A DNA stretch of 64,000 nt from a virus. Positions within the stretch are counted from its first letter, which is position 1; each line of letters begins with the position of its first letter. The DNA is taken from IMG/VR virus record IMGVR_UViG_3300025687_000022. One strand, written 5' to 3'. Positions 14,680 to 36,855 of this stretch are shown here, in pieces. The notes under the pieces were generated by a model. It worked only from the letters and a program-made list of their open reading frames with translations. It ran no database searches and was not told the DNA's origin. A program made the position numbers and the translations under genes.

Positions 14680-14713
14680 AAAAATAAAAAGCCCCTGGCT
14701 TTCACCAGGGGCT
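14680..14713 (-). terminator. Rho-independent terminator after major capsid gene
   Basis: 9-bp stem AGCCCCTGG/CCAGGGGCT followed by TTTTATTTTT. Confidence 0.85.
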
Positions 14714-19230: not shown

Positions 19231-20903
19231 TTTATACCCGCTAGGATCTTCATCCTATCATAACTTACAGATTCTTGTTGAGTTTTTGCTTCTGGTTCTT
19301 GGTAATTAGGGTTTTCATAAATCGCCATAGCAAAATTATCAAATTTCCCAGAGCCATACAAAGCCCTGTATGCATAGTACACAGCTTTTTTATCTTGTGA
19401 GTTGAGCTTATCAAAAGTTGCTTTTAGACCTCCTTTCTTATTAACAGATTTAGCTTTTACAACATAATTTCTGTTAATAAGAGATGTATTCTTATCGCCG
19501 TAAATTTGCTTACCGGGATTGTTGACAGAAGCCTCGTTAACAAGTCGAGCCGTCTGAGAACTTAAAAGCTCATCTCCCATAAATCTACCTAAGAAGTTGG
19601 CAAACTTATCTAAGTATTGTTTAAAAGTATCTTCACTTTTTTCCTCTTCTTTAGCGTTGTTTTTGAATGATTCATATGCTGCTTTAAAATTCTCGTCGGT
19701 AAACTTTTCTTCTGAGTACATGAATTTTCTCTGCTCACGCTCCCGTTGCTCTGGCTCTTGAACTGGTGCCGATGTATCGCCTACTGGGGCGTCCGTGGCG
19801 TCGGTATCTGCGCTATCCGGGGCGTCGGTGTCTGCTGCTCCTGGTTGTTGAACTGGTTTCTCGCCATTTTGCTGGTCGTCTGGGCGTGGAGGTGCTGCTC
19901 CAGGGTCAGATTGTTTGCTCGGTGGTCCAGGGAAACTTGATTGGCTCGATGTAGCCGTTGGTTCTGCTGGCGCTTCTGGACTACCAGAAGAAACATCTTT
20001 ACCAGCAAACAACTCTATAAACTTTTTCTTTATTGGTTCTCTTTTTTCGTTGCCGGCTCCAAAAGTGCTAAGGTAGGTTAAAACAAATTCTTTTACCCTT
20101 TCATTAGGTTCTTTATACCATTCTATAATTTTGTCAATATCTTCTTTTCCAATTCCAAATCGACTACCTAATAGTTCTTTGTAAACTTTCTTGAAATTTT
20201 CTTTATTTTCAGCATTTATTAGTTCATCAACCAATACATTTCTTTGATAATCCGTCAGACCTCCTGATTCCGGCGTATCTGTTCCTGCTGTTGACGCTAT
20301 TTGTGCTTGTTGTGCAGAAGACGCACCCAAAGCTTTGCTAGATTCTGGATTTAATTTGATTTTATTGTTTCTTAGGAGTTTTACAATAACTCTTATAATC
20401 TTGTCTCTATCTGGTCCCTTTGGTATATTAGATAAAGCTTTAATGGTTTCTGGAGCATCAATAATTCTTCTAGATTTCTTTTCTTCCAAAACATTGAAGC
20501 CAGCATTCTTCAAGTCCGTAGCCAACGCTTTTAAGATTGTATTTAAAGTTTTGCTATCGATACCAGCTTTGGCTAATTGTGATTGGATTCCTTTGCCTCT
20601 TTTCCCACGGAAAATGTATACATCTTTTTGTTGATCTTCCACTTCTTCTTCGGCGTCCTCAATAGCCGCTGCGACAGCTTCCTCTGGGACACCTTTGTTT
20701 TTAAGCATTTCGATGTATTGATCGATTTGATTTAACATTTTTTCTCTTTGTTTTCGTGGCGCGGCGGCGTAATTTTGCAAAGCTGGAACTAATACATTAC
20801 TGAGATCATCTATCTCTTTTTGAGAATATTGTCGCTCTTGTAAAAAGCTACGCCATTTATCCACTATAACTTTATCGTTTTTAAAGCTTGACCAACTACT
20901 CAT
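19227..20903 (-). CDS. Putative internal core/cargo protein (558 aa)
   Basis: N-terminal DKWRSFLQE, Pro-rich linker, C-terminal RMKILAGIK like the scaffold. Confidence 0.55.
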   Translation of the reverse strand: MSSWSSFKNDKVIVDKWRSFLQERQYSQKEIDDLSNVLVPALQNYAAAPRKQREKMLNQIDQYIEMLKNKGVPEEAVAAAIEDAEEEVEDQQKDVYIFRGKRGKGIQSQLAKAGIDSKTLNTILKALATDLKNAGFNVLEEKKSRRIIDAPETIKALSNIPKGPDRDKIIRVIVKLLRNNKIKLNPESSKALGASSAQQAQIASTAGTDTPESGGLTDYQRNVLVDELINAENKENFKKVYKELLGSRFGIGKEDIDKIIEWYKEPNERVKEFVLTYLSTFGAGNEKREPIKKKFIELFAGKDVSSGSPEAPAEPTATSSQSSFPGPPSKQSDPGAAPPRPDDQQNGEKPVQQPGAADTDAPDSADTDATDAPVGDTSAPVQEPEQREREQRKFMYSEEKFTDENFKAAYESFKNNAKEEEKSEDTFKQYLDKFANFLGRFMGDELLSSQTARLVNEASVNNPGKQIYGDKNTSLINRNYVVKAKSVNKKGGLKATFDKLNSQDKKAVYYAYRALYGSGKFDNFAMAIYENPNYQEPEAKTQQESVSYDRMKILAGIK

Positions 20904-21501
20904 CTTCTAATACCTGATTAATTAAGCGATTGATTTTATCTGCTTTTGTAAATACGTTGATGTTATGTTCTTTGGCTTCTTTCATCATAAAAGCGCCAGG
21001 GGTAGAAGGCTCAGAAACAAAGTCAAAACAAATAAGTTGGAAGTCGTCTTCAACCATAGTTTGACCATTTGATTCTCTAACTGAACCCATGCCTCTTGAA
21101 GAAATACCAAGAGTAACGCCAGACTCCACAAGAGAACGTAGAATTTTACCAGAAGGAGTTTCTAAAATTTTTGCTTTACCCATAACAGCTTTGCCATCCC
21201 ACCAGACTTCTGTAATCATGTGAGAAGCGTTCTTTAAATTAATAACTGAATCTTCTGGGTGGTCTAATTCACCTAAAGCTCTATTTTCTTTTACAAGTTT
21301 TTGGTAGTTCTTCATTTCTCTTTGGAGAACACGATAAGGGTAAACTCGACCGTTACCATTGCGGACATCTGCTTCTTGTAGTTTGCCACTAAGGATCATA
21401 CCACCATTAGCAACAAATCGCTTTTCTTCTTCAGTAAGAAGGTCTTTGCATATTCCGCTCTCGCAAAGAGCATAAAATTCTCTTAATAATTTCTGACTCA
21501 T
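20896..21501 (-). CDS. Prohead core protease (gp21-like)
   Basis: NGNGRVYP, ALGELDHP, GISSRGMGS, DFVSEPSTPGA. Confidence 0.95.
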   Translation of the reverse strand: MSQKLLREFYALCESGICKDLLTEEEKRFVANGGMILSGKLQEADVRNGNGRVYPYRVLQREMKNYQKLVKENRALGELDHPEDSVINLKNASHMITEVWWDGKAVMGKAKILETPSGKILRSLVESGVTLGISSRGMGSVRESNGQTMVEDDFQLICFDFVSEPSTPGAFMMKEAKEHNINVFTKADKINRLINQVLEDE

Positions 21502-21616: not shown

Positions 21617-21922
21617 TTATTTGGCTTTAGAACCAATATTTTGCTCTAACATTTTAAGAATTCTTTCTAGCATAGTTTTGTGCTGGGACAAATCAATCCC
21701 TGGCCTTGATGCTAAATCGGAGATATATTTTTCAATTTGATTAATAAGTCCAGTCTCTTGACCAGTTAATTCTTTTTCAGTGTCAGAAATTCTAGATAAA
21801 GCATCTTTTCTTCTTTGAGAAGCACTGGCGGTTTGAGTAGCTAGCTTTGTAGGATCAGCAGTTTGATCGTTTGCCAACTCTTCAAGAATAATTTCTTTTA
21901 ATCTACTCTTCGTGATCTTCAT
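21617..21922 (-). CDS. Protein with MKITKSRLKEIILEE leader (putative internal head protein)
   Basis: Shared leader; GAGG SD favours ATG 21922. Confidence 0.65.
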   Translation of the reverse strand: MKITKSRLKEIILEELANDQTADPTKLATQTASASQRRKDALSRISDTEKELTGQETGLINQIEKYISDLASRPGIDLSQHKTMLERILKMLEQNIGSKAK

Positions 21923-22247
21923 TTCCAATCCTCATGTTTTGCGCTATTTGAATTCCTTGATCACCAAATACCATGCTAAGAGCATAAGATGTTCCAGAGG
22001 AAAGTGAGCCAAGTAAAAGTGCGTTTACTAAACTAACTTCAAAATTAAATAGTTGCGTCATTGGAGAAAGCAACATTAAAATCCATCCAACGTGAAAACC
22101 CATGCACATAGGACAATGAAATACTTTTCCATAACCTTTATATGATTGCTTTTCTGGTCGCAATCTTTTTAACAAAGGCATGTCGCTATAAACTAAAATC
22201 TGCGTTAGTCCGTAGGCGATTAAGGCGAATAATATTAGTTCTATCAT
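21903..22247 (-). CDS. Small membrane protein with CPMC motif (DUF1360-like)
   Basis: Three hydrophobic segments; FHCPMCMGFHVG. Confidence 0.6.
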   Translation of the reverse strand: MIELILFALIAYGLTQILVYSDMPLLKRLRPEKQSYKGYGKVFHCPMCMGFHVGWILMLLSPMTQLFNFEVSLVNALLLGSLSSGTSYALSMVFGDQGIQIAQNMRIGNEDHEE

Positions 22248-22702
22248 TTCTTTACCTGATTTGAATTAAATTTACTAGCCAAGAATTTCTGAAGCTCAGC
22301 ATTTACATCTGGAATTGGGGCAAGATCATCCATGTCTTCTATGGTTTTCATAAGATCATTAATAAAAGCAACTTCGATGGGATCATCAACAATTTTGGAA
22401 ACATCATCATCAACGTTTAACTTATCTAACCCTGTTGCTGATTTGAATGAGTCTTCGGCACCATATAGCTTTCCAACAATTTCTTTAGCATCTTTCGCAC
22501 CCTTCCAAAGAGAGAAGATATTACTAACAACTGGTATCTGTTCTATTGCTGCCTCTGCTGCCTTCTTACCCAACTCTTGCCCTGCTTCCATAGCGCGGTG
22601 AGTTTTGATTAGTTTTCTTAAATCTCCAACCGTTTCTAGAGGTGCTTCTTGTATAAGAAACTTATCCCAATTTTCCATTATAAGTTTCATGTGCTTAGAC
22701 AT
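22244..22702 (-). CDS. Protein with MKLIMENWDKFL leader (putative internal head protein)
   Basis: Shared leader; AGGAG SD. Confidence 0.65.
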   Translation of the reverse strand: MSKHMKLIMENWDKFLIQEAPLETVGDLRKLIKTHRAMEAGQELGKKAAEAAIEQIPVVSNIFSLWKGAKDAKEIVGKLYGAEDSFKSATGLDKLNVDDDVSKIVDDPIEVAFINDLMKTIEDMDDLAPIPDVNAELQKFLASKFNSNQVKK

Positions 22703-23252: not shown

Positions 23253-24063
23253 TATCAATCTCCCCAACTAATGCTTGTGTTGCTAAAACTGTCATTAAAA
23301 CATTTTCGTTAATGGTTTGTCTTGAGAAGCTATCTAATCTGCTAATGATTTGTTCTGTTTTTTGAACCATATCATTGTCGTCTTTTATCTCAGAGTTTTT
23401 GCAAGCTTCTGTTAGTTTTGTTTTTAATCTTTTGATTTCTTTATTCAAGAAAATCTTAAGTTCTAATGCATTATCAGCAAAAGAAGAAATGTAATGATTT
23501 AATAGTTCTTTTTGTTCTGACAAAAGAGCATCGTCGTATTTCTCATTAAATTTCTTAACGAAACTTTTATAAGTTAAAGCATCGATCTGCGCTTGCTCAG
23601 CGTTTGGAGTGCTTTTAGACATTTGCTGAATAATGTTCTGCTCTAACATTACTCGTGTTTTTGGAGTTGTTTTTAACGAGAAAATCTGATCAATGGTGGC
23701 AAGACTTTTATAATTGGGCACAAAGTTATTGAAAATATCTGAGGATAGTTCTTTGTTAATGTCGTTGATTAATTCTGTTTGTTGGTTAAACAAACCTTGT
23801 GTGTCTATTAGTCTTTTAGCTAAACGAACTTCTTTAATCAGTCTTTCGCCCATTTCTTGCTCAATACCCTGATTGCTATACAAAGAACGATAACACTCTA
23901 AATCTTCTGATAAAAGGCTATCAGAGTTAAAATGCTTTTTAATAACTGAAATTGTTTTATCTCTTCGTTCTGTGTCGCCCTTCATGATAGCAACAGTTGC
24001 TTCACGAATTAACGCTTCATAGACAAACGCGGTATTTCTTTTTTTGTTATGCCTTGTCTTCAT
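23236..24063 (-). CDS. Hypothetical protein next to portal (possible prohead core component)
   Basis: Helical 275-aa ORF overlapping portal end. Confidence 0.6.
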   Translation of the reverse strand: MKTRHNKKRNTAFVYEALIREATVAIMKGDTERRDKTISVIKKHFNSDSLLSEDLECYRSLYSNQGIEQEMGERLIKEVRLAKRLIDTQGLFNQQTELINDINKELSSDIFNNFVPNYKSLATIDQIFSLKTTPKTRVMLEQNIIQQMSKSTPNAEQAQIDALTYKSFVKKFNEKYDDALLSEQKELLNHYISSFADNALELKIFLNKEIKRLKTKLTEACKNSEIKDDNDMVQKTEQIISRLDSFSRQTINENVLMTVLATQALVGEIDNGDND

Positions 24064-26053
24064 TGTTGTTTTGCTCCGTTAAGATTTCTTTTGTTTTTAA
24101 ACTGTCCAGCAAAGAGCGCACAGATTGATTAACTTCAAAAAGTTGTTCTTCCTCTACTTGCTCTCTCAAAGTATAAGTAGATTGCTCTTCCTCGTAAATA
24201 CCAACATTTGCACGAATAGGTTTAGCAAGGTTGTTTATTGCTGGTGCTCCTGGGAATACATTACGAACACCTGAGCTTGCTTTTTGTCCCCCACCAACAG
24301 CAGCCAGCGATCTACTGCGAGGACCACCACCAGATCTGCGATCAACTTTGGTAGGGTAATATAACTTACCTTTTGCGCCTGGAGTTAGATAAGGCGTATT
24401 ACGCGAGCCTGGAGGGACCGCGAGTAATGGTGACTCTTCGCCGCCGCCTGCTGGCTCTGCCTCTGGTTCTGGTGCGGCTGGTGTTTCTTCTGGTCCACCG
24501 AGGTCTAGTTCGCCGCCGCCTCCACCGAGGTCTAGTTCGCCACCACCTCCACCGAGGTCTAGTCCACCACCTCCACCGAGGTCACCAGCGGCTGCTTCTT
24601 CTGCGACTGCTTGTAGTGCAGCATCTTGCTTACGATCATAAAACATTTCGCGTTGGTTACGGATAAATTCTTCGTTTGACATACCAAAAATATTTTCCAT
24701 AACCCAACGACGAGAAAAATATCCTTCGGTAGCACCAGCGGCAATATCAAACTTTTGCTTCCAGTGCTCTAGCTCTTGTAGTTCTGCAATCTTGGAAGGG
24801 TTGTTTAGCGATAACTCAAAGCCTAAAAGATCGTCGCCTCTAAATCCAAGAGTGTAAAGATGAATAATGCCAATTTTGGTTAGCTCGGAAATAATAACTC
24901 TTTGTAGTCTTTGAATTGTTCTAGCAAAGCGAATGTCTTTCATAGCCAAAGTTGACTGATCTTCTGACGCGCCTTCGCCCATAGTAAGATAAGACTGCGG
25001 AATCTTAAGAGCAGAGAATAGTTTGTCGCGAAGATACTTTACATCATCAATAGCAGTAATGTTTTGGGCACCAGCAAGAGACTGAATGTCTGTAACTGAA
25101 CCAGCACGAACAGGAATAAAATAATCTTCTTCAATAGACATTGGGTTGTAGCGAAGATCTATTCTGCCTGTGTCTGGGTTAACAACAGAATGTCGCTTTA
25201 ACTGTGTTACGATTTTCTCCATGTATTGTTCGACATCTTGTGGAGGAATCGCGCCAACATCAATTTTAAACACGCGACGTTCAGAAGAACGAACAACACG
25301 ATAAGCCATCATAGAATCTTCCATTAATGTAAGCTGACGCCAGATACGACGCGCTGGCTCTAAAATAGAAGAACCATAAGGAATGTATTTATCATTTCCT
25401 AAAATTCTAAAATGACAAATCTGCCAATTTTCAAACGTCATGCCCGCAGAGTTCCACTGGTACTGCACGTAATTTGGGTTTGTAGAGTCTTGCCCTTCTA
25501 ATCTCTCAATCTCTTGTGGGGGCAAAGCGATTACAGATTTAACTCCATAATTATCGTCAAGATCAAGATAAAGAAAGAAATCGCCATACTTGCACATTGT
25601 TCTAGACCAACCAAACAAGTTGTATTGGATGTTTAGCACCTGATCAAAAAGAATGTGCAATACTGCTTTGATTTCTTCGTTAGAACATTTAATGTTTAGC
25701 ATTGGACGAAGTTCAGTATATGTTGTCATTTCGTCTGCGTAAATATCAAGAGTAGAAGCAATTTCTGGAGTGTATTCCATTTGATCAAAATCAACGTATC
25801 TTTCCGTCCTACGTTGGTTTGCGATTGCATCTGTTGCAACAACATCTAATGGGTTATAGAGAGATTTTTTAAATTGTTGCCCTGAAGCAGATTTAAATCT
25901 TGAACTATATTTGTCAAGATGCTGTCTTCTTATTCTTCGCCCTGACTGTGAGCGATAACTAATAATAGGTCCAGAAAAAAGCCTTGTTAACGCTTTAAAT
26001 AACTGCGACTCTGCATTAGCTGGATTTCTTCCCGATCTTCTTGGTGGTGCCAT
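24047..26053 (-). CDS. Portal protein (gp20-like)
   Basis: QLTLMEDSMMAYRVVRSSERRVFKIDVG, EEDYFIPVR, IDDVKYLRDKLFSALKIP. Confidence 0.95.
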   Translation of the reverse strand: MAPPRRSGRNPANAESQLFKALTRLFSGPIISYRSQSGRRIRRQHLDKYSSRFKSASGQQFKKSLYNPLDVVATDAIANQRRTERYVDFDQMEYTPEIASTLDIYADEMTTYTELRPMLNIKCSNEEIKAVLHILFDQVLNIQYNLFGWSRTMCKYGDFFLYLDLDDNYGVKSVIALPPQEIERLEGQDSTNPNYVQYQWNSAGMTFENWQICHFRILGNDKYIPYGSSILEPARRIWRQLTLMEDSMMAYRVVRSSERRVFKIDVGAIPPQDVEQYMEKIVTQLKRHSVVNPDTGRIDLRYNPMSIEEDYFIPVRAGSVTDIQSLAGAQNITAIDDVKYLRDKLFSALKIPQSYLTMGEGASEDQSTLAMKDIRFARTIQRLQRVIISELTKIGIIHLYTLGFRGDDLLGFELSLNNPSKIAELQELEHWKQKFDIAAGATEGYFSRRWVMENIFGMSNEEFIRNQREMFYDRKQDAALQAVAEEAAAGDLGGGGGLDLGGGGGELDLGGGGGELDLGGPEETPAAPEPEAEPAGGGEESPLLAVPPGSRNTPYLTPGAKGKLYYPTKVDRRSGGGPRSRSLAAVGGGQKASSGVRNVFPGAPAINNLAKPIRANVGIYEEEQSTYTLREQVEEEQLFEVNQSVRSLLDSLKTKEILTEQNNNEDKA
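24495..24583 (-). repeat. Imperfect 24-27 nt tandem repeat encoding (E)LDLGGGGG in portal tail
   Basis: CCACCGAGGTC core repeated four times. Confidence 0.85.
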
Positions 26054-26061
26054 TTATTTTC

Positions 26062-27645
26062 TCACTTTATAATCCATTTGTATTGATCATACATTAATCT
26101 TGCTTCTGTCATTTTATCCATTATATTATCTTCTTTATGTCCTATCTGTCCTTTGATGCGAGTATTCATTGTTGTTTTAGTTGTGTAGATTGCATTAACA
26201 AAAGCTTTTGAGTAGTTTAGATCTCTAGAGTTCGCTTGAATCGCAGTATCTCTGACCCAGCACGCAATTGCAAGAGCCATAATTAAATCATCATGGTATC
26301 CTTTCATTGCTTGTGGCTTGCCATTTTTCCAAACAAAAGTTTTCATTTCACTAACAACACGAGATGAATTTATTTTAATTAGTTTATTTCTGATAAACTC
26401 TTCAAATTTCGCAATAATCAAAGGTCGTGTCTTCACACTTGTCGAAAAGCCTGCAACAGCAGTATTTCTAACTTCTGCTTGATATTGCTCAACATACTCG
26501 TGTGTAGACTTAATAGAATAATAAATATTTGGATAACCATATTCTATCAGTTTATCCAAAACTGTGTAGCCAATGTTATTGTTTTCAACCACCATCATGC
26601 AATTACCGTATTCTCTACCAACTTGATTTAACATGTTGGCAAACAAATCTGGCGATGGTTTACCTTGATATTCGCCTACAATCTCTAATGTTTCTAATTC
26701 AAGTATATGAAACGTAGAAAAGTCTTCTCCATCGCCTCTTGCAACATCAGCGACAAGAAGATAGTTAGATGTAGGATCAAATTCTTTCCAAATCCAAAAG
26801 TTACGATCAAAGCCGGTGCGATGCTTTGGCTCGCAAACATTTGCCAATAACCATTCCATGTCTTCTGCGTCAATAACAGTTTCACCAGATGTATTAAAGT
26901 TGCACTCTAACTCCTGCGCGATCTGGCGTCTAGACATGTTGCGTGTTTCTTTTTTAAACCAAACTTCATCTCGCTCGGGGTGGACATGCCACGGAAGCGT
27001 TGTTAAGTGAAAGTTATTTGATTTTGATTCTGCATCGGCGCACGTTTTATGAAACCAGTTACCAACACCGTTTGGAGTTGATAGCGCGATACAGCGACCA
27101 CCAGTAGACAACGTTGGATATAGACCAGTCCATAGCTCTTCTAAGCCTTCAATGTGCGCTGCCTCATCAAGAACTAATAAAGAAAGAGCTTCAGAACGAC
27201 CAGCATCGCCAGAAGTTGAAGCAGCTTTAATTGAAGAACCATTTGATAATTCAAAAGAAGTAGAGTTATCAGTTTTGATTTTTGCAATCAAAATCCACTC
27301 TGGTAGGTTCTTCATTATTTTCTTGACTTTCTTAACCAAGTTAGTTGCTGTAGCAAACTTGGTTGCCATAACAAGAACAGCTTTATCGCGATGAAACAAC
27401 ATCATCCAAGCGATATAGCCTGCTGTAACTGTAGAAATACCTAACTGTCTTGCTTTAAGAATAACGTTAAATCGATGATCGTTAAAGTCAGATAACAATT
27501 TATCCTGAAAAGGATAAGTATTAAAAAGTATTAACCCATGCATAGGATGGGAAATACGTGCATAAGTTTTCAGAAAGTATGCTGGGTCTTTACCGCATTT
27601 AAGTATTTCTTTTACACGCTGTTTTTTATCTAGCTGAAAAGACAT
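26062..27645 (-). CDS. Terminase large subunit (gp17-like)
   Basis: KARQLGIST (Walker A), LVLDEAAH (Walker B), STPNG, ADVARG, HDDLIMALA. Confidence 0.97.
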   Translation of the reverse strand: MSFQLDKKQRVKEILKCGKDPAYFLKTYARISHPMHGLILFNTYPFQDKLLSDFNDHRFNVILKARQLGISTVTAGYIAWMMLFHRDKAVLVMATKFATATNLVKKVKKIMKNLPEWILIAKIKTDNSTSFELSNGSSIKAASTSGDAGRSEALSLLVLDEAAHIEGLEELWTGLYPTLSTGGRCIALSTPNGVGNWFHKTCADAESKSNNFHLTTLPWHVHPERDEVWFKKETRNMSRRQIAQELECNFNTSGETVIDAEDMEWLLANVCEPKHRTGFDRNFWIWKEFDPTSNYLLVADVARGDGEDFSTFHILELETLEIVGEYQGKPSPDLFANMLNQVGREYGNCMMVVENNNIGYTVLDKLIEYGYPNIYYSIKSTHEYVEQYQAEVRNTAVAGFSTSVKTRPLIIAKFEEFIRNKLIKINSSRVVSEMKTFVWKNGKPQAMKGYHDDLIMALAIACWVRDTAIQANSRDLNYSKAFVNAIYTTKTTMNTRIKGQIGHKEDNIMDKMTEARLMYDQYKWIIK

Positions 27646-29931: not shown

Positions 29932-30135
29932 CTACTCTAATCCTTTTAATTTAACAATAGCATCAATTACAGATTGACCACCGAGATAAAGACCGGAGAT
30001 AACAACCCAATCTGCTGATTCTAAACTACCAAAAGCCATAAGTGCAGTGGCAGCGACCCAAACCAACAGTTTACGTGATGTTAGTTTTTCTAATCCCCTG
30101 TCTAATAAAGCTTCTTTTCTTTCTTCACTCATCAT
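29932..30135 (-). CDS. Holin-like small membrane protein
   Basis: 67 aa, LTSRKLL then two hydrophobic segments ending YLGGQSVID. Confidence 0.55.
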   Translation of the reverse strand: MMSEERKEALLDRGLEKLTSRKLLVWVAATALMAFGSLESADWVVISGLYLGGQSVIDAIVKLKGLE

Positions 30136-30358
30136 CTTTCACCTCTTTTATTTCACCCATGTCGCGTAAAACACTTGCAACATAAGCATCTGCTCTTTCC
30201 TTGCTTAAACCTTTAGTTGTTTGAATACACTTTGATTTACCTGCAAATGTTTTATAAAGACCTTTCTCAAAGCAATCTTTCTTTTTTTCTTTTTCTGCCA
30301 TAAGCCTATCAAGCTCTTCTGCGATTATTTGTTTTAAAGTTGATTTATTAATTTTCAT
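30125..30358 (-). CDS. Small protein with MKINKSTLKQIIAEE leader
   Basis: Shared leader followed by a short basic domain with two Cys. Confidence 0.65.
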   Translation of the reverse strand: MKINKSTLKQIIAEELDRLMAEKEKKKDCFEKGLYKTFAGKSKCIQTTKGLSKERADAYVASVLRDMGEIKEVKDDE

Positions 30359-31197
30359 GGTCGGATTCCTTTGGATTCGTTTAAAGCTTCCATAAACTTC
30401 TCGTGTGCTGTACCGCTGCTATTAGATTGAAACAGTCGTCGTAATTCTGGTGGCAGCAACCAGCAAAATTCGAGGTCGAGGGTCGTCAGGTTCGTGCAGC
30501 CCTCCAGCACGTCTACGTTCTCCAGCGACCTGCAATCGCTGAGATAGAGTTTCGTCAGGCTCGTAAGCCCCTCCAACCCGTCTACGTTCTGCAGCGACCG
30601 GCAACTGTAGAGGTAGAGGGTCGTCAGGTTCGTGCATTCCTTTAGCCCGTCTACGTTCTGCAGCGACGAGCACATTTCGAGGTTGAGGGTCGTCAGGTTT
30701 GTAAGACCCTGGAGCCCGTCTACATTCTGCAGCGACTTACACCAGTAAGCGTCGAGGGTCGTCAGGTTCGGTAGGGACTTCAGCACGTCTACGTTCTCCA
30801 GCGACGTGCACCTTTCGAGGTCGAGGGTCGTCAGGTTCGTGAGTCCCTCTAATCCGTTTACGTTCTGCAGCTTCTTGCAAAAGCGGAGGTCTATTTGTTC
30901 TGTAATATTTAGTTCACTTAAGCCAGACAAGAAATCAACGTCTTGTATTTTTGACCTTGCAAACCGATCAATCACTTTTAGCTTTGCTAAGATCTGATCA
31001 TTTTCTGTTGGAGCGTTAGTTTCAATATCGTCTTTGAGCGTAGAATAAAGCACTACTCCTTGTGCAAACTGCCAAGGATCTTCATGATCTAAAAACTCTA
31101 AAATCTTTCTAGCATATTGTTGATCTTCATTTTCTGTTAAAAACTTAACAACTTCTTCTTTGATTACTTGCTTTAACTTAGTTTTGGTTATTTTCAT
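30355..31197 (-). CDS. Leucine-rich repeat protein with MKITKTKLKQVIKEE leader
   Basis: About 6-7 23-aa repeats NLTTLxLxxCxSLxNVDxLxxxT. Confidence 0.9.
   Translation of the reverse strand: MKITKTKLKQVIKEEVVKFLTENEDQQYARKILEFLDHEDPWQFAQGVVLYSTLKDDIETNAPTENDQILAKLKVIDRFARSKIQDVDFLSGLSELNITEQIDLRFCKKLQNVNGLEGLTNLTTLDLERCTSLENVDVLKSLPNLTTLDAYWCKSLQNVDGLQGLTNLTTLNLEMCSSLQNVDGLKECTNLTTLYLYSCRSLQNVDGLEGLTSLTKLYLSDCRSLENVDVLEGCTNLTTLDLEFCWLLPPELRRLFQSNSSGTAHEKFMEALNESKGIRP
30453..30900 (-). repeat. 69-nt tandem repeat array encoding the LRRs
   Basis: Units start at 30837, 30768, 30699, 30630, 30561, 30492; shared AACCTGACGACCCTC and TCGCTGSAGAACGTAGAC. Confidence 0.9.
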
Positions 31198-31708: not shown

Positions 31709-34700
31709 CTATTGTTTTATTTTTGCAAAGTCGGCTTCTTTGTCAATAACGATCTGCATATCAACACAATCCTTCAAAGAATCAAGATGCGAGATCAACA
31801 AAACGTTTTTAAAATACACTTTAATTAGTTCTAAAATCCGAATAAACCCATCCATATTTTCAGCATCTAGCGCTGTTCCTGGTTCATCAAGTATAAACAG
31901 ATCTGCTTTAGGCAAAGAAGACACACTAAGTAGCGATAATCTTATTGCTATCGCTGCCATTGTTTTTTCTGCACCAGAAGCCATTTCAATAGGTCTTTCG
32001 TCGTAAGCGGGGTGTTTAATGAAAATATCAAATTTATTTCCAGAACTATCAAAGAAAATTTCAAAGTCCACAATATTTGCTAGAATCTTTGCGATCTCTT
32101 CATTAATAACAGGAATTTTATTTTTAATAATGTCATACGAGATTCCGTTAGTATGCATACAGCGCATAAACAAATCGTAAGCCGTGAACTCACGTTGCAA
32201 GCGCAAATAAGATTCTTTGTCTTTTATAATGTTTTTAAGCGCTTCTTCACAAGAACCAACTTGTTTATAAAGTTGCAAAGTATCTCGCTCGCATCTTGAA
32301 AGCTTGTTTTTTTCATTTGATAAATCTTTTTCAATTTTTGATTTGTCTTGGATTAGTCGCTGAAGATTTTCGATTACTTCTTTGTTTTCTTCATAATAAG
32401 AAATTCGCTTTTCGATTTCTATCAACTCACTTTCAAATCTAGCTACACTTGTTTTGTTGCGCTCTCTTTCTAACTTGGCTGTAGAAATCTCAGCCTGCAA
32501 ACTACGAGTAAGATTTACAATATTTTCGTATTGTTCAATTCGTTTGTTAATTGTACCAAGATCGTAGTTTGCAAATCTTAAGTTTGTTTGTTGTAATTCA
32601 GATTCAACAGAACCAGAAGACGCAACAGCAACGTGAGCATCTTTAATAAATCTACAAGTAGGAAAAGAATTACCACAAGGTATGCTGTTTAATAGTTTTT
32701 TCTTTTTATCGATATCTTGCAAATCACTCATTAAAGAATTTATTTTATCTTTTAATTTATTTGCTTCTTCTTTTTCGACGTGGATCGAGCTAATGTCGAT
32801 CATCGAAACTAAAGCATTTGCTTTGGCTAGCTTTTCTTCTTTAAGTCCAATAGCACTTGACGCTTCTGTAATCTTTTCATTTACGCAAGACAAAAGGTAT
32901 TTTGTTTCATTTTGCTTATTGACAAGTTGGGCAACATCGATAAAATCTGTTGGAGCAGATGCTATTTGATTTTTTAAATTGTTCAACTTTTCGTTAAGAA
33001 CAGAAATTTTAATTTTCAACTCTTCGCACTTTGATTGATTTACCTCAGAGTCTTGCTTTGCCTTAGCTAACCTTTCTTCTGTTTCAGAAATCTCAACATC
33101 AAAATCTCTATCAGAGCATTTGTTAAGAAGAACTTTTGTATCACGCGAATCTTCTTTTGCTAATTTGAACTTTTGATCAAAAAACTCAAGATCCAAAAAC
33201 TTTGCAATAATCTCTTTGCGCTTTGTTGAACCTTCATCGACAAAAGAAAATGCGCCGTGCTGAGAGGCAAGAGAAGACATAGAAAAATCTTCTATGGTGC
33301 CAAAGTGCTTGCGAATATTTGCGTCGGTTTGAGCCCGCGTGGTGCCGTTGAGAGAGGTAGTTTCTCCTGTGGTCTTGTCGTGCTCTTCAAAGTTTAGCTC
33401 AGTCTTTGCTTCTGTTATTTCTTCTTTCTTAACGCGACGAGTGTACTTAACAGATTGTCTGGTAATATAATAAACTTTATCTCCGATCTCAATCTCTAGT
33501 TCTCCGCGCCCATAGTCTCTATTTTGATTAATAACATTTAAATTCTTGCGCTCATTTTTCGAAGTCGTGTTGAAAAGTGTATAAAGCGCTGCGTCAATAA
33601 CAGAACTTTTGCCACTAAAGTTCTTGCCAAAAATTCCGATAATCCCAGAGAGACTGTCAAAATTAATGTTGTTATCTTCTCCATAATTAAAAAGATTGTC
33701 CCATTTAAAGTTGTTGATTTTCCAGTTGACATTTCTTGAAACCTCTTCGTTGTCTTCTACAATTTTATTATACTTACGATTTAGTTCGTAAATAGACTCA
33801 AGAGTATCTTCATCGATCTGATAATCCTTAAGGTACTCTGAAATAAGTTCTTCTTGTACGTTTATGTCGCGTAGGTTCTCGCAATACAAATCTCCAGCAA
33901 TTTCTTCAACGGAACCACGAGAACCAGCAGCACGGTTGAGAAAAGTAACACTTTCAGGCTTGTATTTATGTTTTGCAACATCAAGCGCTTTACGCATAAC
34001 GTCGAGAGGCAAATTATTTTCACTTACCAAACGCAAACGAGCGCCACTTGGGACGCTTGTTTTTCTTGGTATCTTGCCAGTTGGAGTTAGCGTAATAGTA
34101 AAAAATGGCTTTGGATTATTAAAAACAATATGATCAACATTCCAATCATTTTTAGATTTTATGTTCCAAAGCAACAAGCCTTTATCGTTGCTCTCTCCGT
34201 GATTTTGCTGAACGGTAGAGCCAGCATACCAAACTCGTTTTGTTTTATCCAGCGCCTGACAACGATGAATGTCGCCAAGCATAGCAAAATCAAAATCGTT
34301 AAAAATAGATATATCGTCTTCGCCGTTTACCATTTCCCAATCAGCATCGGTTTTACAACCGCTGATAGAGCCATGATAAAGCGCTATGTTGATTTTTGAT
34401 GAATCTGTTGGTTGCGTCCAATTATCTCTATCAAAAACAGAAAGTACATTTAAACATAAATCATTATTTAAATGTACTTCACCGGAGTTTTTAAGCAAAT
34501 GAAGATGAGGAAGATTTAATGCCTCAACGATTGGAGTAATCGCATCTTGGCGGTTACTGTTCTTAAGATTGCCATCGTGGTTACCAAGAATAATATAAGT
34601 TGGCGCAATTAAAGAAAGATTGCGAAAAAAATCAGAGCACATATCAACAAACTCAGGAGAAATTTGAGTTTTAGTATGTGCGATATCTCCACAGTGAACA

Positions 34701-34816
34701 ATATAATCTACTTTATTTTCTCTAAGAGAATCGTAAATTTGTTCAAATATTTCTTTGTATTCTTGATGGTATTTTAAATTTTTAATATGAGTATCAGCAA
34801 TATGAGCGATCTTCAT
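31709..34816 (-). CDS. Fused SbcD(Mre11)-SbcC(Rad50) nuclease-ATPase
   Basis: ADTH, CGDIAH, GNHD, YHG, GDIH; then GKNFSGKS, ASGAEK, FILDEPGTALD, ISH with central coiled coil. Confidence 0.93.
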   Translation of the reverse strand: MKIAHIADTHIKNLKYHQEYKEIFEQIYDSLRENKVDYIVHCGDIAHTKTQISPEFVDMCSDFFRNLSLIAPTYIILGNHDGNLKNSNRQDAITPIVEALNLPHLHLLKNSGEVHLNNDLCLNVLSVFDRDNWTQPTDSSKINIALYHGSISGCKTDADWEMVNGEDDISIFNDFDFAMLGDIHRCQALDKTKRVWYAGSTVQQNHGESNDKGLLLWNIKSKNDWNVDHIVFNNPKPFFTITLTPTGKIPRKTSVPSGARLRLVSENNLPLDVMRKALDVAKHKYKPESVTFLNRAAGSRGSVEEIAGDLYCENLRDINVQEELISEYLKDYQIDEDTLESIYELNRKYNKIVEDNEEVSRNVNWKINNFKWDNLFNYGEDNNINFDSLSGIIGIFGKNFSGKSSVIDAALYTLFNTTSKNERKNLNVINQNRDYGRGELEIEIGDKVYYITRQSVKYTRRVKKEEITEAKTELNFEEHDKTTGETTSLNGTTRAQTDANIRKHFGTIEDFSMSSLASQHGAFSFVDEGSTKRKEIIAKFLDLEFFDQKFKLAKEDSRDTKVLLNKCSDRDFDVEISETEERLAKAKQDSEVNQSKCEELKIKISVLNEKLNNLKNQIASAPTDFIDVAQLVNKQNETKYLLSCVNEKITEASSAIGLKEEKLAKANALVSMIDISSIHVEKEEANKLKDKINSLMSDLQDIDKKKKLLNSIPCGNSFPTCRFIKDAHVAVASSGSVESELQQTNLRFANYDLGTINKRIEQYENIVNLTRSLQAEISTAKLERERNKTSVARFESELIEIEKRISYYEENKEVIENLQRLIQDKSKIEKDLSNEKNKLSRCERDTLQLYKQVGSCEEALKNIIKDKESYLRLQREFTAYDLFMRCMHTNGISYDIIKNKIPVINEEIAKILANIVDFEIFFDSSGNKFDIFIKHPAYDERPIEMASGAEKTMAAIAIRLSLLSVSSLPKADLFILDEPGTALDAENMDGFIRILELIKVYFKNVLLISHLDSLKDCVDMQIVIDKEADFAKIKQ

Positions 34817-35104: not shown

Positions 35105-36328
35105 TTATTGAGGCGATGTCAAGGAGTCTATCTTTTGAATTCCTGCTCCGTAAAGGATTTTATTCAAAATTTTAAGCAGCTGTTCTTCGCTTTCAACACC
35201 ATTAGCTATTAGTGTTGCTTCTGGCTGTCTTTGATAATCGGACACAACTTTATTTATACCATCTTCAACAATTTCTTGATATAAATTGTATGCAACTGAC
35301 CATTCTAGAGCAATTACTTGTGCTTGAAGATCTTCATCGCCCCCAGGAAGGTCAGCATAGCGCATTTCAATATCGCCGCTATTAGATGGCCATTTTCCAG
35401 TATCTCCGAATACAAAATCTCTTAGATCTGAAATATTTTTGACATCATTTTTCAAAATATTTTCAATAACCCACTCCTTATACTGCTCTTTAGTGTCAAA
35501 AGAATTTGGCATAACAAGGTTATCTGGTATTTGATCGTAATCTATATATGCAATGCCGCCTGGAGCTTGTGTAGTGACATGCGCTCTTCTGTAATTTAAC
35601 CGACCAGAGTCAACTAATTGATCAATATGATTCCATAGAACTTCTACAGTTTCATCATTTGTTAAGTCGTCAAAAGCTTCAGCATTTATATTTCCATAGA
35701 AATCGTAGGCTTGGACTTGTGAAAGGTCAGGTGGTCCATCAGAAACTGCAAACGTCATACGCGGCTTCGAATCAGTTGCCATCATTTCTATTGCACTTTC
35801 TGGATCATCGGCAATAACGTTTATGTGATTAAAAATATCAGTACCTTGAGATAATGCTGACGCCAGCAACCCAGCTATAATTGCTTTTGTACCTCTTGTT
35901 TCTCTTCCGATTCTGTCTTTGATTTTTTGTATCGTTGCTCTCGCAAGATTTTCTTTTGACTCACCAGTTTCTTCAGAGTCGATACGATCAGCGAGTTTGG
36001 AAAAAAATCTTTTGACCATGTTAACATCTGGTTGCTCTGATTCGGAAAGTGTATTTAAAAAGTCCACAAGTTCATCTGCAATTTTAGATGATGGATCGGA
36101 TGATGGACCACCTGATGGATCACCCATTCCATGCACTTCAACTACTTGTTCTTTATCTGGAACTTGAAGAACTTTCGGTGGAGAAGCTAATCTTAAAAAT
36201 TCAGCAGTTTCTTTGGGAGATAATGTGTTGATTTCCGAAGAAAAAGAGCCGTTTTGTTCTTTCAAAAAAGCATTCACTTCTTCTTTAATAATTTGTTTTA
36301 ATCTTGTTTTTGTTATTAACATTTTCAT
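35105..36328 (-). CDS. Acidic protein with LITKTRLKQIIKEE leader (putative cargo)
   Basis: Shared leader ending AFLKE. Confidence 0.65.
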   Translation of the reverse strand: MKMLITKTRLKQIIKEEVNAFLKEQNGSFSSEINTLSPKETAEFLRLASPPKVLQVPDKEQVVEVHGMGDPSGGPSSDPSSKIADELVDFLNTLSESEQPDVNMVKRFFSKLADRIDSEETGESKENLARATIQKIKDRIGRETRGTKAIIAGLLASALSQGTDIFNHINVIADDPESAIEMMATDSKPRMTFAVSDGPPDLSQVQAYDFYGNINAEAFDDLTNDETVEVLWNHIDQLVDSGRLNYRRAHVTTQAPGGIAYIDYDQIPDNLVMPNSFDTKEQYKEWVIENILKNDVKNISDLRDFVFGDTGKWPSNSGDIEMRYADLPGGDEDLQAQVIALEWSVAYNLYQEIVEDGINKVVSDYQRQPEATLIANGVESEEQLLKILNKILYGAGIQKIDSLTSPQ

Positions 36329-36855
36329 GCTCCTTGCAAATATTTATCTTCTATAAGTTTTTTTAAGTAATACCGAACCCATACATTTTCAAAAGTGTTG
36401 ATAGTTGGATCAAAAAAATCTTTTAGAGGATATGTGTCATCCTCGTTTGTACCATCTGGGTGAACAAAAGAACCGTTCATGGGCGCCGAGAGCGATTCAA
36501 TAAGCGATAAATATGCAGGAATAAAACTTTCTATATCTTCTTTTGTTTGTATTTCTGATGCTTTTTTGCGAAGTTCTTTTATTTGTTTTATTTTTTCAGG
36601 CGTTTCATCACGAAATACATTTCCCCAATCAGGGTCTTCATCTGTGGTCAACAATTCAAAAAAAGATCGCTTTAAGTCTTTAACGGCAAGATTTTCTGCT
36701 TCGGCGTAAATGTCTTCAATGGCTAAAGGCGCAAGTTCGTATCCTTGCTCTACAGTATCTGGATCATCATTTGTTATTAGTTTATAAACTTGTTGTGCGT
36801 ATGGATCGGCAGCTTCTTTTAAAAACTTGCGCCAATTTTCAAATAGTAATTTCAT
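36325..36855 (-). CDS. Protein with MKLLFENWRKFLKE leader (putative cargo)
   Basis: Shared leader; ACTATTTA motif 39 nt upstream. Confidence 0.65.
   Translation of the reverse strand: MKLLFENWRKFLKEAADPYAQQVYKLITNDDPDTVEQGYELAPLAIEDIYAEAENLAVKDLKRSFFELLTTDEDPDWGNVFRDETPEKIKQIKELRKKASEIQTKEDIESFIPAYLSLIESLSAPMNGSFVHPDGTNEDDTYPLKDFFDPTINTFENVWVRYYLKKLIEDKYLQGA

What the first reader, a model, noticed from the sequence alone, without database searches (positions are those of the whole stretch)
30355..31197. Leader-tagged LRR protein with GC-rich 69-nt repeats and a hypervariable face
Seen: the LRR block uses mostly G/C-ending codons, unlike the AT-rich N-terminal part of the same gene and its neighbours. 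Framework codons are near-identical between units even at synonymous sites, while exposed positions vary (D-L-ER, D-A-YW, N-L-EM, Y-L-YS, Y-L-SD, D-L-EF). Inference: an LRR module from a high-GC donor (possibly the host) was grafted behind the leader, then expanded or homogenised by recombination while the binding surface diversified. It may be an injected binder of a host defence protein.
Basis: partly seen in the sequence, partly recalled or inferred. Interest (0 to 1): 0.7.

Follow-up and report, generated by a model that had tools for sequence, protein, structure and literature searches.

The report
Phage LRR binder with borrowed repeats
A T4-like estuarine phage encodes a small leucine-rich-repeat binding protein whose six repeats were copied from a high-GC organism, are swapped between sister genes and vary on the binding face; its front tag suggests, without direct proof, that it is loaded into the phage head and injected.

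Summary
Gene 30355-31197 (-) encodes a 280-aa protein in four parts: a 14-aa leader, an AT-rich helical N-domain, six 69-nt LRR units and an AT-rich C-cap. GC3 is 0.80 in the units against 0.28 +/- 0.055 elsewhere in the window (z = 9.5).

An uncultured 67%-GC, leaderless gene found in two independent metagenomes carries the same unit. Its consensus matches the phage consensus at 66 of 69 nt and at all 23 third positions. The high-GC donor idea is therefore supported. However, only the internal units are recent imports; the N-domain and caps are old. The donor's taxon is unknown, as is whether it is the host.

Five concave-face positions have dN about 0.9 against dS about 0.3. Unit number runs from 1 to 9 in the family. 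One strain allele carries a unit also found in a paralog.

The leader ends in I-K-E, the cutting motif of T4-type head proteases. Such a protease (Pfam S77) lies in the window, and unrelated proteins share the leader. Loading into the head and injection are inferred, not shown. The target is unknown.

This scan had already noted ten more paralogs elsewhere in this genome, and leader-tagged LRR families in other phages.

The parts
30355..31197 (-). Whole gene for the 280-aa leader-tagged LRR protein. Its stop overlaps the start of the next leader-tagged gene (ATGA).
   Evidence: ORF list. Pfam LRR_4, 7.5e-20, 70.9 bits against a cut-off of 27. AF2 model with pLDDT 91 and pTM 0.85.
31156..31197 (-). 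Leader, aa 1-14 (MKITKTKLKQVIKE). It is basic (pI 10.2) and ends in I-K-E. Candidate capsid-targeting propeptide and prohead-protease site.
   Evidence: The same leader starts unrelated ORFs. gp21 cuts after L/I-x-E and T4 propeptides are 10-19 aa long (PMC9026906). pLDDT is 54-59 over aa 1-20. pI.
30949..31155 (-). AT-rich helical N-domain, aa 15-83 (type A N-cap, contains DPWQFAQG).
   Evidence: GC3 is 0.13-0.35. Helices at 25-36, 41-61 and 63-74. It is conserved in the paralogs.
30880..30948 (-). Degenerate first LRR unit, aa 84-106 (IQDVDFLSGLSELNITEQIDLRF), with AT-rich codons. The GC-rich tract starts at about aa 103.
   Evidence: Unit register and sequence. GC3 profile.
30466..30879 (-). 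Six GC-rich 69-nt (23-aa) LRR units, aa 107-244. Unit boundaries are 30811-30879, 30742-30810, 30673-30741, 30604-30672, 30535-30603 and 30466-30534. The hypervariable positions are 2, 18, 20, 22 and 23 of each unit.
   Evidence: Beta strands fall on unit positions 18-20. The units are 84-94% nt-identical to those of the 67%-GC gene in L029.
30355..30465 (-). AT-rich C-cap and conserved tail, aa 245-280 (CWLLPPELRRLF...GTAHEKFMEALNESKGIRP), plus the stop codon.
   Evidence: GC3 is 0.35-0.39. Strand at 255-257 and helix at 264-277. The tail is conserved across the family.
20896..21501 (-). T4 gp21-type prohead protease, the presumed enzyme that removes the leader.
   Evidence: Pfam Peptidase_S77, 2.4e-34. 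phrog_207 head maturation protease, 1.7e-56.
30125..30358 (-). Neighbouring 77-aa gene with the same leader class (MKINKSTLKQIIAEE) and an unrelated body.
   Evidence: No Pfam or PHROG family.
21617..21922 (-). 101-aa protein with the leader MKITKSRLKEIILEE, next to the protease gene. This is the position of the small T4 core proteins gp67/gp68.
   Evidence: T4 gene order.
35105..36328 (-). 407-aa protein with the leader MKMLITKTRLKQIIKEE and an unrelated body.
   Evidence: No Pfam family.

Best explanation
The window is part of an uncultured T4-type myovirus from estuarine metagenomes. The gene encodes an internalin-like LRR solenoid. It is one member of a phage family of about a dozen paralogs that share a leader, one of two N-caps, a variable number of 23-aa units and a constant C-cap.

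Shown:
- The internal units descend from one 69-nt unit whose third positions were 22/23 G or C.
- Almost the same unit sits in a leaderless gene of an unidentified 67%-GC organism.
- The unit pool of the GC-rich gene lies at the centre of the phage units' diversity.
- The phage units have since drifted toward A/T.
- Unit number changes between close alleles, and whole units move between paralogs.
- Five residues of the LxxLxLxxCx strand and loop change far faster than synonymous sites.

Inferred:
- An older, already AT-adapted phage LRR gene had its internal repeats replaced by recombination with the high-GC homologue. The new units then spread through the paralog family.
- The 14-residue leader works like the T4 capsid-targeting sequence. 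It would dock the protein onto the prohead core, and the S77 protease would cut after I-K-E14.
- The roughly 30-kDa acidic LRR would stay in the head and enter the cell with the DNA.
- There its concave face would bind a polymorphic host protein, most plausibly part of an anti-phage system.
For: Phage identity. TerL, a T4-type portal, an S77 protease and the major capsid protein are all present.

Composition.

Family.
- There were 388 hits, and 54 of the 137 proteins fetched carry the leader, with 0-9 units by a regular-expression count.
- Locus L005 has five leader-tagged genes in tandem. Four are LRR genes with GC3 of 0.43-0.56, and one is a non-LRR gene with GC3 of 0.22.

Units.
- Codons are fixed in a position-specific way, including an A-ending GTA for Val7. 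This points to common descent of the DNA rather than a general drive toward GC.
- Synonymous departures from the consensus are 74 GC-to-AT, 35 GC-to-GC and 3 AT-to-GC.

Donor.
- L029 (ENA) and L036 (JGI) are 99.6% identical over 813 nt and differ by one unit.
- Both are 67% GC, and GC3 of the gene is 0.74-1.0 throughout.
- Their units are 84-94% identical to the phage consensus.
- They also share an odd unit, GSGTFTALQSRGALGVLKSLPNLT, with phage proteins P0005 and P0006.
- Framework dS is 0.09 within the GC-rich gene, 0.40 within the phage units and 0.275 between the two sets. GC3 is 0.92 against 0.83.
- The two proteins align collinearly over their full length, but the N-domain shares only about one third of its residues.

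Selection. Framework codons give dS 0.40 and dN 0.135. The five variable codons give dS 0.32 and dN 0.90. The window's own six units give 0.355 and 0.81. The GC-rich gene shows the same pattern.

Recombination.
- Full-length alleles of 239, 216, 193 and 170 aa correspond to 4, 3, 2 and 1 units.
- P0019, whose N-terminal part is close to the window's (76% identity over the aligned half), has a single unit.
- Strain allele L025 is 99.5% identical over 4.1 kb. By hand count of the two printed alleles it has 19 nt changes in 12 LRR codons, 11 of them non-synonymous. A gapped alignment scored 15 of 20 mismatches in the 415-nt LRR part. Only 5 changes fall in the other 3,689 nt.
- The new unit in L025 matches a unit of paralog P0022 over 28 aa.

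Leader.
- All K-type leaders end in I-x-E at aligned positions.
- T4 IPII and IPIII start MKTYQEFIAE, IPI ends ITE, gp24 starts MAKINELLRE and gp22 starts MLKEQLIAE.
- The cleavage rule, the length of the targeting sequence and the fact that it can carry unrelated cargo come from PMC9026906, PMC5694885 and PMC3012670.
- The leader is a low-confidence helix detached from the fold in the AF2 model.

Fold. The best matches are internalins InlC2, InlA and InlB, with E down to 4.6e-9.
Against: - There is no virion or cleavage evidence of any kind.
- Resemblance to the T4 targeting sequence is generic: an MK start, an amphipathic stretch and an I-x-E end.
- The mature protein is acidic (pI 4.5), whereas the T4 internal proteins are basic.
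- The target is unknown, and PADLOC and PHROGs give no functional lead.
- The GC-rich gene is known only from contigs of 1.3-1.4 kb. Its taxon was not found in 401 Verrucomicrobiota genomes, 401 Planctomycetota genomes or the phage collection.
- The direction of transfer rests on composition and divergence alone.
- The five 'variable' positions were chosen after looking at the data, which inflates dN. This does not explain dN exceeding dS.
- Some chimeric or short alleles sit on contigs of 1-2 kb and could be assembly errors within repeats.
- Other paralogs differ between strains by only 1-5 SNPs, so change is episodic.
Confidence: 0.55

Rival explanations
1. The LRR proteins are ordinary intracellular phage proteins made during infection to bind host factors. 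They are not packaged. On this view the shared leader is a conserved 5' coding cassette that serves translation initiation or recombinational gene swapping, not head targeting.
For: - In a related strain, a GNAT gene with the same leader is inserted exactly at the leader of the next gene. Leaders therefore do act as recombination joints.
- The mature protein is acidic, unlike the T4 internal proteins.
- No virion data exist.
Against: - The leader is conserved as protein with synonymous differences (compare the DNA).
- It ends in the exact motif cut by S77 proteases, at a constant distance from Met1.
- It also sits on small proteins inside the head-gene module, next to the protease.
- It is detached from the fold.
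- In T4 the same kind of shared N-terminus is both a recombination joint and a targeting signal, so the two roles do not exclude each other.
Confidence: 0.25
2. The GC-rich codons are maintained by a force acting on the repeats, not inherited from a donor. Candidate forces are GC-biased gene conversion among frequently recombining units, or selection for rare, slow codons that helps the solenoid fold. On this view the 67%-GC gene received its units from the phage.
For: - The repeats do recombine.
- The block uses the phage's rarest codons.
- The AT-rich caps are homologous to the caps of cellular relatives, so a single whole-domain graft cannot explain the pattern.
Against: - Codon choice is position-specific and includes a fixed A-ending Val codon (GTA, 44/47). 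This is a sign of descent, not of a general GC drive.
- Departures from the consensus run 74 toward AT against 3 toward GC, and phage GC3 (0.83) is below that of the GC-rich gene (0.92). The phage units are decaying, not being held.
- In the 67%-GC gene the unit composition matches its own N-domain and flanks. In the phage it matches nothing.
Confidence: 0.12
3. The protein is an external virion or adhesion component. It would be an internalin-like receptor-binding or decoration protein whose variable face tracks host surface molecules.
For: - The fold is closest to internalins, which are surface adhesins.
- Hypervariable phage proteins are usually receptor binders (general knowledge).
- A multi-paralog repertoire would suit host-range variation.
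Against: - There is no tail-fibre or capsid-attachment domain, and the protein is only 280 aa.
- The same leader is carried by enzymes and small unrelated proteins.
- The gene lies among non-structural small genes, between the fused SbcCD gene and the terminase gene.
- Cys occupies the Asn-ladder position, and the protein has 9 free Cys. By general knowledge of the cysteine-containing LRR class, this is typical of cytoplasmic LRRs.
Confidence: 0.08

Closest known systems
[quoted passage not shown]
   Same: - A T4-type head module with an S77 protease.
- A short N-terminal leader shared by otherwise unrelated, dispensable-looking proteins and ending in I-x-E.
- Cargo genes that differ between strains and are swapped at the leader.
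- In T4 the cargo includes an anti-restriction protein (IPI*) and an enzyme (Alt).
   Different: - The leader sequence is different (MKITKxxLKQIIKEE against MKTYQEFIAE).
- The cargo is an acidic 30-kDa LRR solenoid rather than a small basic protein.
- The cargo forms a multi-paralog family with modular, hypervariable repeats.
- Packaging and cleavage are not demonstrated here.
Listeria internalins (InlA, InlB, InlC2), as a fold
   Same: A helical N-cap followed by short (22-23 aa) LRRs that form a curved solenoid with a binding concave sheet. Foldseek E is 4.6e-9 to 1e-7, with TM up to about 0.5-0.6.
   Different: Sequence identity is 20-33%. There is no signal peptide, Ig-like inter-repeat domain or cell-wall anchor. 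Cys replaces Asn at the ladder position. The protein is phage-encoded.
LRR proteins of Verrucomicrobiota and Planctomycetota MAGs (Chthoniobacter tandem membrane-anchored LRR arrays; a Luteolibacter nSTAND1 NTPase-LRR), and the unassigned 67%-GC gene P0029
   Same: The same 23-aa unit signature (C-x-[SA]-L-Q-N-V-D-x-L-x-G-x-T-x-L-x-x-L-x-L), at 42-59% protein identity over the LRRs. P0029 shares the unit at the DNA level (66/69 in the consensus) and the whole domain order.
   Different: The cellular proteins have no leader. Most have a membrane anchor or a STAND NTPase in front. Apart from P0029, their DNA is only 61-72% identical in the consensus unit.
Variable lymphocyte receptors of jawless vertebrates, and LRR gene families of giant viruses and entomopoxviruses
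   Same: A constant LRR framework with diversity concentrated on the concave face, generated by moving whole LRR modules between genes. Large viral LRR paralog families are known in NCLDV and entomopoxviruses, which are the top BFVD matches.
   Different: Here there is germline exchange between paralogs, not somatic assembly. The host is a bacterium. None of the 50 BFVD matches listed (E down to 2.8e-9) is from a phage.
Injected bacterial LRR effectors (Yersinia YopM, Shigella IpaH and Salmonella SspH LRR domains)
   Same: A small LRR solenoid delivered into a target cell by an injection machine in order to bind host proteins. This is an analogy from general knowledge and was not tested here.
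   Different: Delivery here would be by the phage head and tail. There is no E3-ligase or other effector domain, and no sequence relationship was tested.

Membership tests
Leucine-rich repeat proteins (Pfam LRR_4 / internalin-like solenoids) | Tandem 20-30-aa repeats with the LxxLxLxx(N/C)xL core | tested here: met
   There are six regular 23-aa units plus one degenerate unit, with core L16-x-x-L19-x-L21-x-x-C1-x-x-L4.
Leucine-rich repeat proteins (Pfam LRR_4 / internalin-like solenoids) | Profile match above the curated cut-off | tested here: met
   PF12799 LRR_4 scores 70.9 bits against a cut-off of 27, E = 7.5e-20. Five further LRR models (LRR_EndoS, LRR_5, LRR_R13L1-DRL21, LRR_Zer-1, LRR_RPS2) score above their cut-offs.
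Leucine-rich repeat proteins (Pfam LRR_4 / internalin-like solenoids) | Curved solenoid fold with one short beta strand per repeat | tested here: met
   AF2 pLDDT is 91. Strands recur every 23 residues, at 124-126, 147-149, 170-172, 193-195, 216-218 and 239-241. The top PDB matches are internalins.
T4-type capsid-targeted internal head proteins (CTS cargo) | The phage encodes a gp21-family (Peptidase_S77) prohead protease and a T4-type head module | tested here: met
   PF03420, 2.4e-34, at 20896-21501. T4-type portal, capsid protein and TerL.
T4-type capsid-targeted internal head proteins (CTS cargo) | An N-terminal propeptide of about 10-19 residues ending in L/I-x-E | tested here: met
   I12-K13-E14 in this protein, and IAE, ILE and IKE in the other K-type leaders. 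The rule is taken from PMC9026906.
T4-type capsid-targeted internal head proteins (CTS cargo) | The same propeptide on several otherwise unrelated proteins of one phage | tested here: met
   Four K-type leaders plus one variant occur in the window. In L005 the leader precedes both LRR and non-LRR bodies. In L026 it precedes a GNAT.
T4-type capsid-targeted internal head proteins (CTS cargo) | Sequence homology of the leader to the T4 CTS (MKTYQEFIAE) | tested here: inconclusive
   Only the MK start, the amphipathic character and the I-x-E end are shared. The stretch is too short for statistics.
T4-type capsid-targeted internal head proteins (CTS cargo) | Presence in the virion, removal of the propeptide and ejection into the host | not testable with these tools
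   This needs virion proteomics or a cleavage assay.
Diversity-generating retroelement (DGR) variable proteins | Adenine-specific substitutions copied from a template repeat | tested here: not met
   Differences between alleles involve all four bases (for example ACC>GAC, CGG>GAG, TCG>TTG, TGC>CTC). They arrive as a whole unit also found in another paralog. Variable codons include NNG types, which could create stops. No search for a reverse transcriptase was made.

The most novel reading that the evidence does not exclude
The phage keeps a germline library of about eleven head-targeted LRR binders. They are built from a 69-nt cassette captured from a high-GC cellular LRR gene and are reshuffled between paralogs. 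The phage would inject this 'polyclonal' set with its DNA to block or decoy variable host immune proteins. Candidate targets include STAND/NLR-type sensors, some of which in Verrucomicrobiota use the same LRR type. This would be a phage counterpart of a variable-receptor repertoire, without a retroelement.
Probability: 0.2. Interest if true: 0.85.

Novelty: new variant of a known kind. Interest (0 to 1): 0.65.

Why it matters
T4's internal proteins are the textbook case of proteins pre-loaded into a capsid to disarm the host on entry, but they are few and small. Here the same address label appears to carry a modular, fast-evolving binding scaffold.

The origin of that scaffold can be traced to the nucleotide: a foreign high-GC repeat unit, still 96% identical in consensus to a gene living in a 67%-GC genome.

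That gives a dated, directional example of transfer from a high-GC genome, probably cellular, into a phage. In this transfer only the repeats of an existing gene were replaced.

It also shows a route to binding-site diversity through unit shuffling and selection on five residues per repeat. This route needs no diversity-generating retroelement.

If packaging is confirmed, such families would be a source of natural, compact, injectable protein binders and of new anti-defence proteins. The leader would be a simple marker for finding injected cargo in uncultured phages.

Tried and rejected
Searches that found nothing:
- No nucleotide or protein match of the region in the 50,697 phage records. The GC-rich contig also had no match there.
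- No whole genome is held for the window. Contigs behind L005, L007 and L009 are not held either, so I could not prove that the paralog clusters lie on the same molecule as the window. They do co-occur in the same samples.
The single-protein scan gave 6 loci.
- The donor's taxon was not found. There was no hit at E <= 1e-35 in 401 Verrucomicrobiota or 401 Planctomycetota genomes. Five MAGs match only the LRR part, at 42-59%.
- A search with the N-domain of P0029 found one distant relative, P0138, whose units are unrelated in DNA.
- The flanking ORF of L029 gives only a sub-threshold Acyltransferase hit (E = 0.015).
- DNA for P0006 was not retrievable.
- PADLOC gave nothing, and PHROGs gave only an unnamed family.
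- The T4 late-promoter motif TATAAATA and sigma-70 or terminator scans showed no useful signal near the gene.
- The window has no tRNA genes.

Ideas rejected:
- DGR-type mutagenesis, because the substitutions are not adenine-specific.
- Continuous hypermutation, because other paralogs differ between strains by only 1-5 SNPs.
- Translational optimisation, because the block uses the phage's rarest codons.
- Overlapping ORFs in the repeat (30422-30673 on the - strand, 30806-30997 on the + strand), which I take to be by-products of stop-poor GC-rich sequence.

Not done:
- Three literature searches that included 'leucine-rich repeat' found no paper on leader-tagged phage LRR proteins. The library is incomplete.
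Full report
**What the window is.** All long ORFs lie on the minus strand. They include a large terminase (26062-27645), a T4-type portal (24047-26053), a head maturation protease (20896-21501), a major capsid protein (14739-16550), a 968-aa ORF (8531-11437) that I take to be the tail sheath, and other tail genes. The protease matches Pfam Peptidase_S77, the family of T4 gp21, at 2.4e-34. The nearest terminases are those of Flavobacterium myoviruses, at 48.7% identity, and nothing matches at the DNA level. The target protein is encoded letter for letter on 14 metagenome contigs. The five fetched (L009-L013, four from JGI and one from ENA) are 100% identical in DNA over the gene. This is therefore an uncultured T4-type myovirus of about 37% GC.

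**Checking the observation.**
- The gene at 30355-31197 (-) encodes 280 aa.
- Tandem Repeats Finder reports a 69-nt period with 5.8 copies.
- In frame there are six 23-aa units (aa 107-244). An AT-rich degenerate unit (aa 84-106) precedes them and a C-cap and tail (aa 245-280) follow.
- GC3 rises from 0.13-0.35 to 0.70-0.87 and falls back to 0.35-0.39.
- The block's GC3 of 0.804 lies 9.5 standard deviations above 604 equal-sized windows from the other genes, whose maximum is 0.50 in the capsid gene.
- Its preferred codons (CTG, CTC, ACG, TCG, GGG) are the rarest in the capsid and sheath genes, so this is not translational optimisation.
- Pfam LRR_4 matches at 7.5e-20.

**The family.** A protein search gave 388 relatives. 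The best are full-length metagenomic proteins with a common layout. They share the leader MKITKxxLKQIIKEE, usually followed by an acidic D/E/Y tract. Then come one of two N-caps, a variable number of units and the constant tail ending GTA(Y/H)E(K/Q)FM...; the protein is 165-389 aa long. In locus L005, from a 113-kb contig, five leader-tagged genes stand in tandem. Four are LRR genes with GC3 of 0.43-0.56. One has an unrelated body with GC3 of 0.22. Earlier notes of this scan report ten such paralogs elsewhere in this same genome. I could not confirm that they lie on the same molecule, but the loci come from the same samples as the window's locus.

**Anatomy of the unit.**
- I compared 50 non-redundant 69-nt units from the window gene and the paralogs in L001-L008. 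The consensus is CKSLQNVDGLKGCTNLTTLDLSG, with G or C at 22 of 23 third positions.
- Codon choice is position-specific. Leu4 and Leu16 are CTG, Leu19 and Leu21 are CTC, Thr17 is ACG, and Val7 is the A-ending GTA in 44 of 47 units. That pattern indicates shared descent of the DNA, not a general pull toward GC.
- Amino-acid entropy is concentrated at positions 2, 18, 20, 22 and 23 (2.1-3.2 bits). These are x positions of LxxLxLxxCx. In the AF2 model (pLDDT 91), the beta strands fall on unit positions 18-20.
- At these codons the first two bases vary while the third is mostly kept, giving NNC or NNG.
- Nei-Gojobori estimates give dS 0.40 and dN 0.135 for the 18 framework codons, against dS 0.32 and dN 0.90 for the five variable codons. 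The window's six units alone give 0.355 and 0.81.
- Choosing the positions after looking inflates dN, but it does not explain dN exceeding dS about 2.5-fold.
- Framework dS is no lower than dS between the N-domains or tails of paralogs (0.14-0.83). The units are therefore not especially homogenised.

**Where the units came from.** Named cellular relatives with this repeat signature are almost all Verrucomicrobiota of 55-69% GC.
- Chthoniobacter MAGs carry tandem arrays of membrane-anchored LRR proteins.
- A Luteolibacter MAG has a 942-aa nSTAND1 NTPase fused to 16 units.
- One small contig is binned as Planctomycetota.
- Their consensus units are only 61-72% identical to the phage's in DNA.

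The decisive relative is P0029, encoded on L029, a 1.3-kb ENA contig of 67% GC.
- It has no leader.
- Its N-domain and units both have GC3 of 0.74-1.0.
- Its seven regular units are 84-94% identical in DNA to the phage consensus, including the odd GTA codon.
- It carries the unusual unit GSGTFTALQSRGALGVLKSLPNLT, which phage proteins P0005 and P0006 also have.
- An independent JGI contig, L036, is 99.6% identical over 813 nt and has one more unit. The gene is therefore real and is itself length-polymorphic.

The two consensus units are identical at 66 of 69 nt and at all 23 third positions. Framework dS is 0.09 within the GC-rich gene, 0.40 within the phage units and 0.275 between the two sets. 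The GC-rich units thus sit near the root of the phage units' radiation. Phage units have lower GC3 (0.83 against 0.92). Their synonymous departures from the consensus run 74 toward A/T and 3 toward G/C.

P0029 aligns collinearly with a phage paralog over its whole length. In the N-domain, however, only about a third of the residues match, and the phage's N-domain has phage-like AT-rich codons. My reading is that the phage already had an old, AT-adapted member of this gene family. The internal repeats of that gene were then replaced by recombination with a high-GC homologue, and the new unit spread through the paralogs. The opposite direction would leave the GC-rich units in the phage unexplained. 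The donor's taxon was not found. A 67%-GC host for a 37%-GC phage would be unusual, so 'donor = host' stays open.

**Variation in relatives.**
- Clusters at 90% identity or more hold full-length alleles of 239, 216, 193 and 170 aa. These have the same leader, N-domain and tail with 4, 3, 2 and 1 units.
- On long contigs, one paralog has 2 units in L003 and 3 in L001 and L002. Another locus has a 6-unit gene in L005 where L006-L008 have a 9-unit gene plus a further 7-unit gene.
- P0019, whose N-terminal part is close to the window's (76% identity over the aligned half), has one unit.
- At the window's own locus, IMG/VR contig L025 is 99.5% identical over 4.1 kb. It nevertheless differs in 12 codons of units 4 to 6, and 11 of those changes are non-synonymous. 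By hand count this is 19 nt in the 415-nt LRR part; a gapped alignment scored 15 of 20 mismatches there. Only 5 differences fall in the other 3,689 nt.
- The replaced stretch equals, over 28 residues, a unit of paralog P0022, which has the other N-cap type.
- The changes involve all four bases, so they are not DGR-like. Other paralogs differ between strains by only 1-5 SNPs.
- Diversity therefore arises episodically, by exchange of units and unit indels, with selection on the concave face.
- Some variants, such as the chimera P0129, sit on contigs of 1-2 kb and need read-level confirmation.

**The leader.**
- In the window, four ORFs start with the K-type leader: 31197, 30358, 21922 and 36328. 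ORF 19230 has a variant. Three more have a second type built around ENWxxFL.
- All K-type leaders end in I-x-E at aligned positions (IKE, IAE, ILE, IKE).
- T4 gp21 cuts after L/I-x-E.
- The T4 internal proteins have 10-19-residue propeptides that target them to the prohead core and then are removed.
- That targeting sequence can carry unrelated proteins into the head, and related phages have different cargo behind similar leaders (PMC9026906, PMC5694885, PMC3012670).
- From the T4 record, IPII and IPIII start MKTYQEFIAE, IPI's propeptide ends ITE, gp24 starts MAKINELLRE and gp22 starts MLKEQLIAE.
- The leader here is basic (pI 10.2), lies outside the fold (pLDDT 54-59) and is followed by a low-confidence hinge.
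- Leader-bearing small proteins also sit next to the protease gene, where T4 has its core proteins gp67 and gp68.
- In strain L026, a GNAT acetyltransferase with the same leader is inserted between the LRR gene and the next gene.

These features fit a T4-type 'load, clip, inject' signal. There is no direct evidence, and the mature protein is acidic (pI 4.5), unlike the T4 internal proteins. I put packaging at roughly 0.55-0.6 and an anti-defence target at roughly 0.3.

**Comparison with what is known.** The fold is internalin-like. In the viral structure library, the 50 matches listed are all LRR families of giant viruses and entomopoxviruses, and none is from a phage. PHROGs has no named family for it, and PADLOC has none. 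Three literature searches found no description of leader-tagged phage LRR proteins. This scan has met leader-tagged LRR paralog families in other uncultured phages. The general theme is therefore recurrent within the scan, though I found no published account.

What is specific here is the traceable high-GC origin of the repeat unit and the strain-level unit exchange. I class it as a new variant of a known kind, namely T4-type targeted head cargo, with an LRR repertoire as the cargo.

**Verdict.** The high-GC origin, the expansion by recombination and the diversifying face hold. The graft boundary and the 'homogenised' claim need correcting. Host identity, injection and target remain untested.

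Noticed in passing
window 12914-13144, 22244-22702, 36325-36855 (all -); capsid gene 14739-16550 (-): A second leader class (MKLLFENWRKFLKE, MKLIMENWDKFLIQE, MKLLLENWKDYIK) resembles a motif in the N-terminal propeptide region of the phage's own capsid protein (ALLKKWERTGLLE) and of T4 gp23 (ELLNKWKPLLE). It may dock on the scaffold in the way the capsid protein's propeptide does.
   Followed up: partly
L026:76-627 (IMG/VR UViG_3300000116_002405), corresponding to the junction at window ~30358: In a closely related strain, a 184-aa GNAT acetyltransferase (PF00583, 26.7 bits) with the same leader is inserted between the LRR gene and the 77-aa gene. The insertion joins at the leader, which suggests cassette insertion by recombination between leaders.
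   Followed up: partly
L018:1144-3972 (Luteolibacter MAG JBOFET010000249.1): A 942-aa protein combines N-terminal transmembrane segments (judged from the sequence) with an nSTAND1 NTPase (PF20703, 2.9e-14) and 16 LRR units of the same 23-aa type. It is an NLR-like architecture and has no PADLOC match.
   Followed up: partly
L014:3140-6521 (Chthoniobacter MAG GCA_021414005.1, 504-kb contig): Four tandem paralogs of 250-276 aa. Each has an N-terminal membrane anchor, a conserved AxREAxxAG...DWH domain and 5-6 LRR units of this type. A fifth lies nearby.
   Followed up: no
L015:1272-4017 (ENA contig, 40% GC); also P0048, P0058, P0067, P0085, P0102, P0118: Another widespread LRR family occurs in tandem. 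Members start MTKTELKxxxxKIKKxLKQRDY, have an N-domain like the phage's type-B N-cap and end MTTREEVAAYQEEIKKSMK. Their units are not GC-enriched. The organism is unknown.
   Followed up: no
L029 versus L036: The 67%-GC leaderless LRR gene is itself polymorphic in unit number (7 against 8 regular units). It shows the same excess of non-synonymous change at the five concave positions (dN 0.91, dS 0.26).
   Followed up: yes
window 31709-34816 (-): A single 1035-aa ORF fuses an SbcD-like nuclease (Metallophos) to an SbcC-like ATPase. In T4 these are two separate genes, gp47 and gp46.
   Followed up: no
L005:2971-7059 and 13755-14711; P0022, P0016 and others: Most paralogs carry a long acidic D/E/Y tract directly after the leader (for example EQDEYDDYDDYDYEEEE). 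The window's gene has only TENEDQQ there. The tract recalls the acidic stretch of the T4 core protein gp67.
   Followed up: no
P0129 (302 aa, 1.3-kb ENA contig): This protein joins the N-terminal part of paralog P0001 to the C-terminal units and tail of the window gene, in the L025-type allele. It is either a real inter-paralog recombinant or an assembly chimera.
   Followed up: partly
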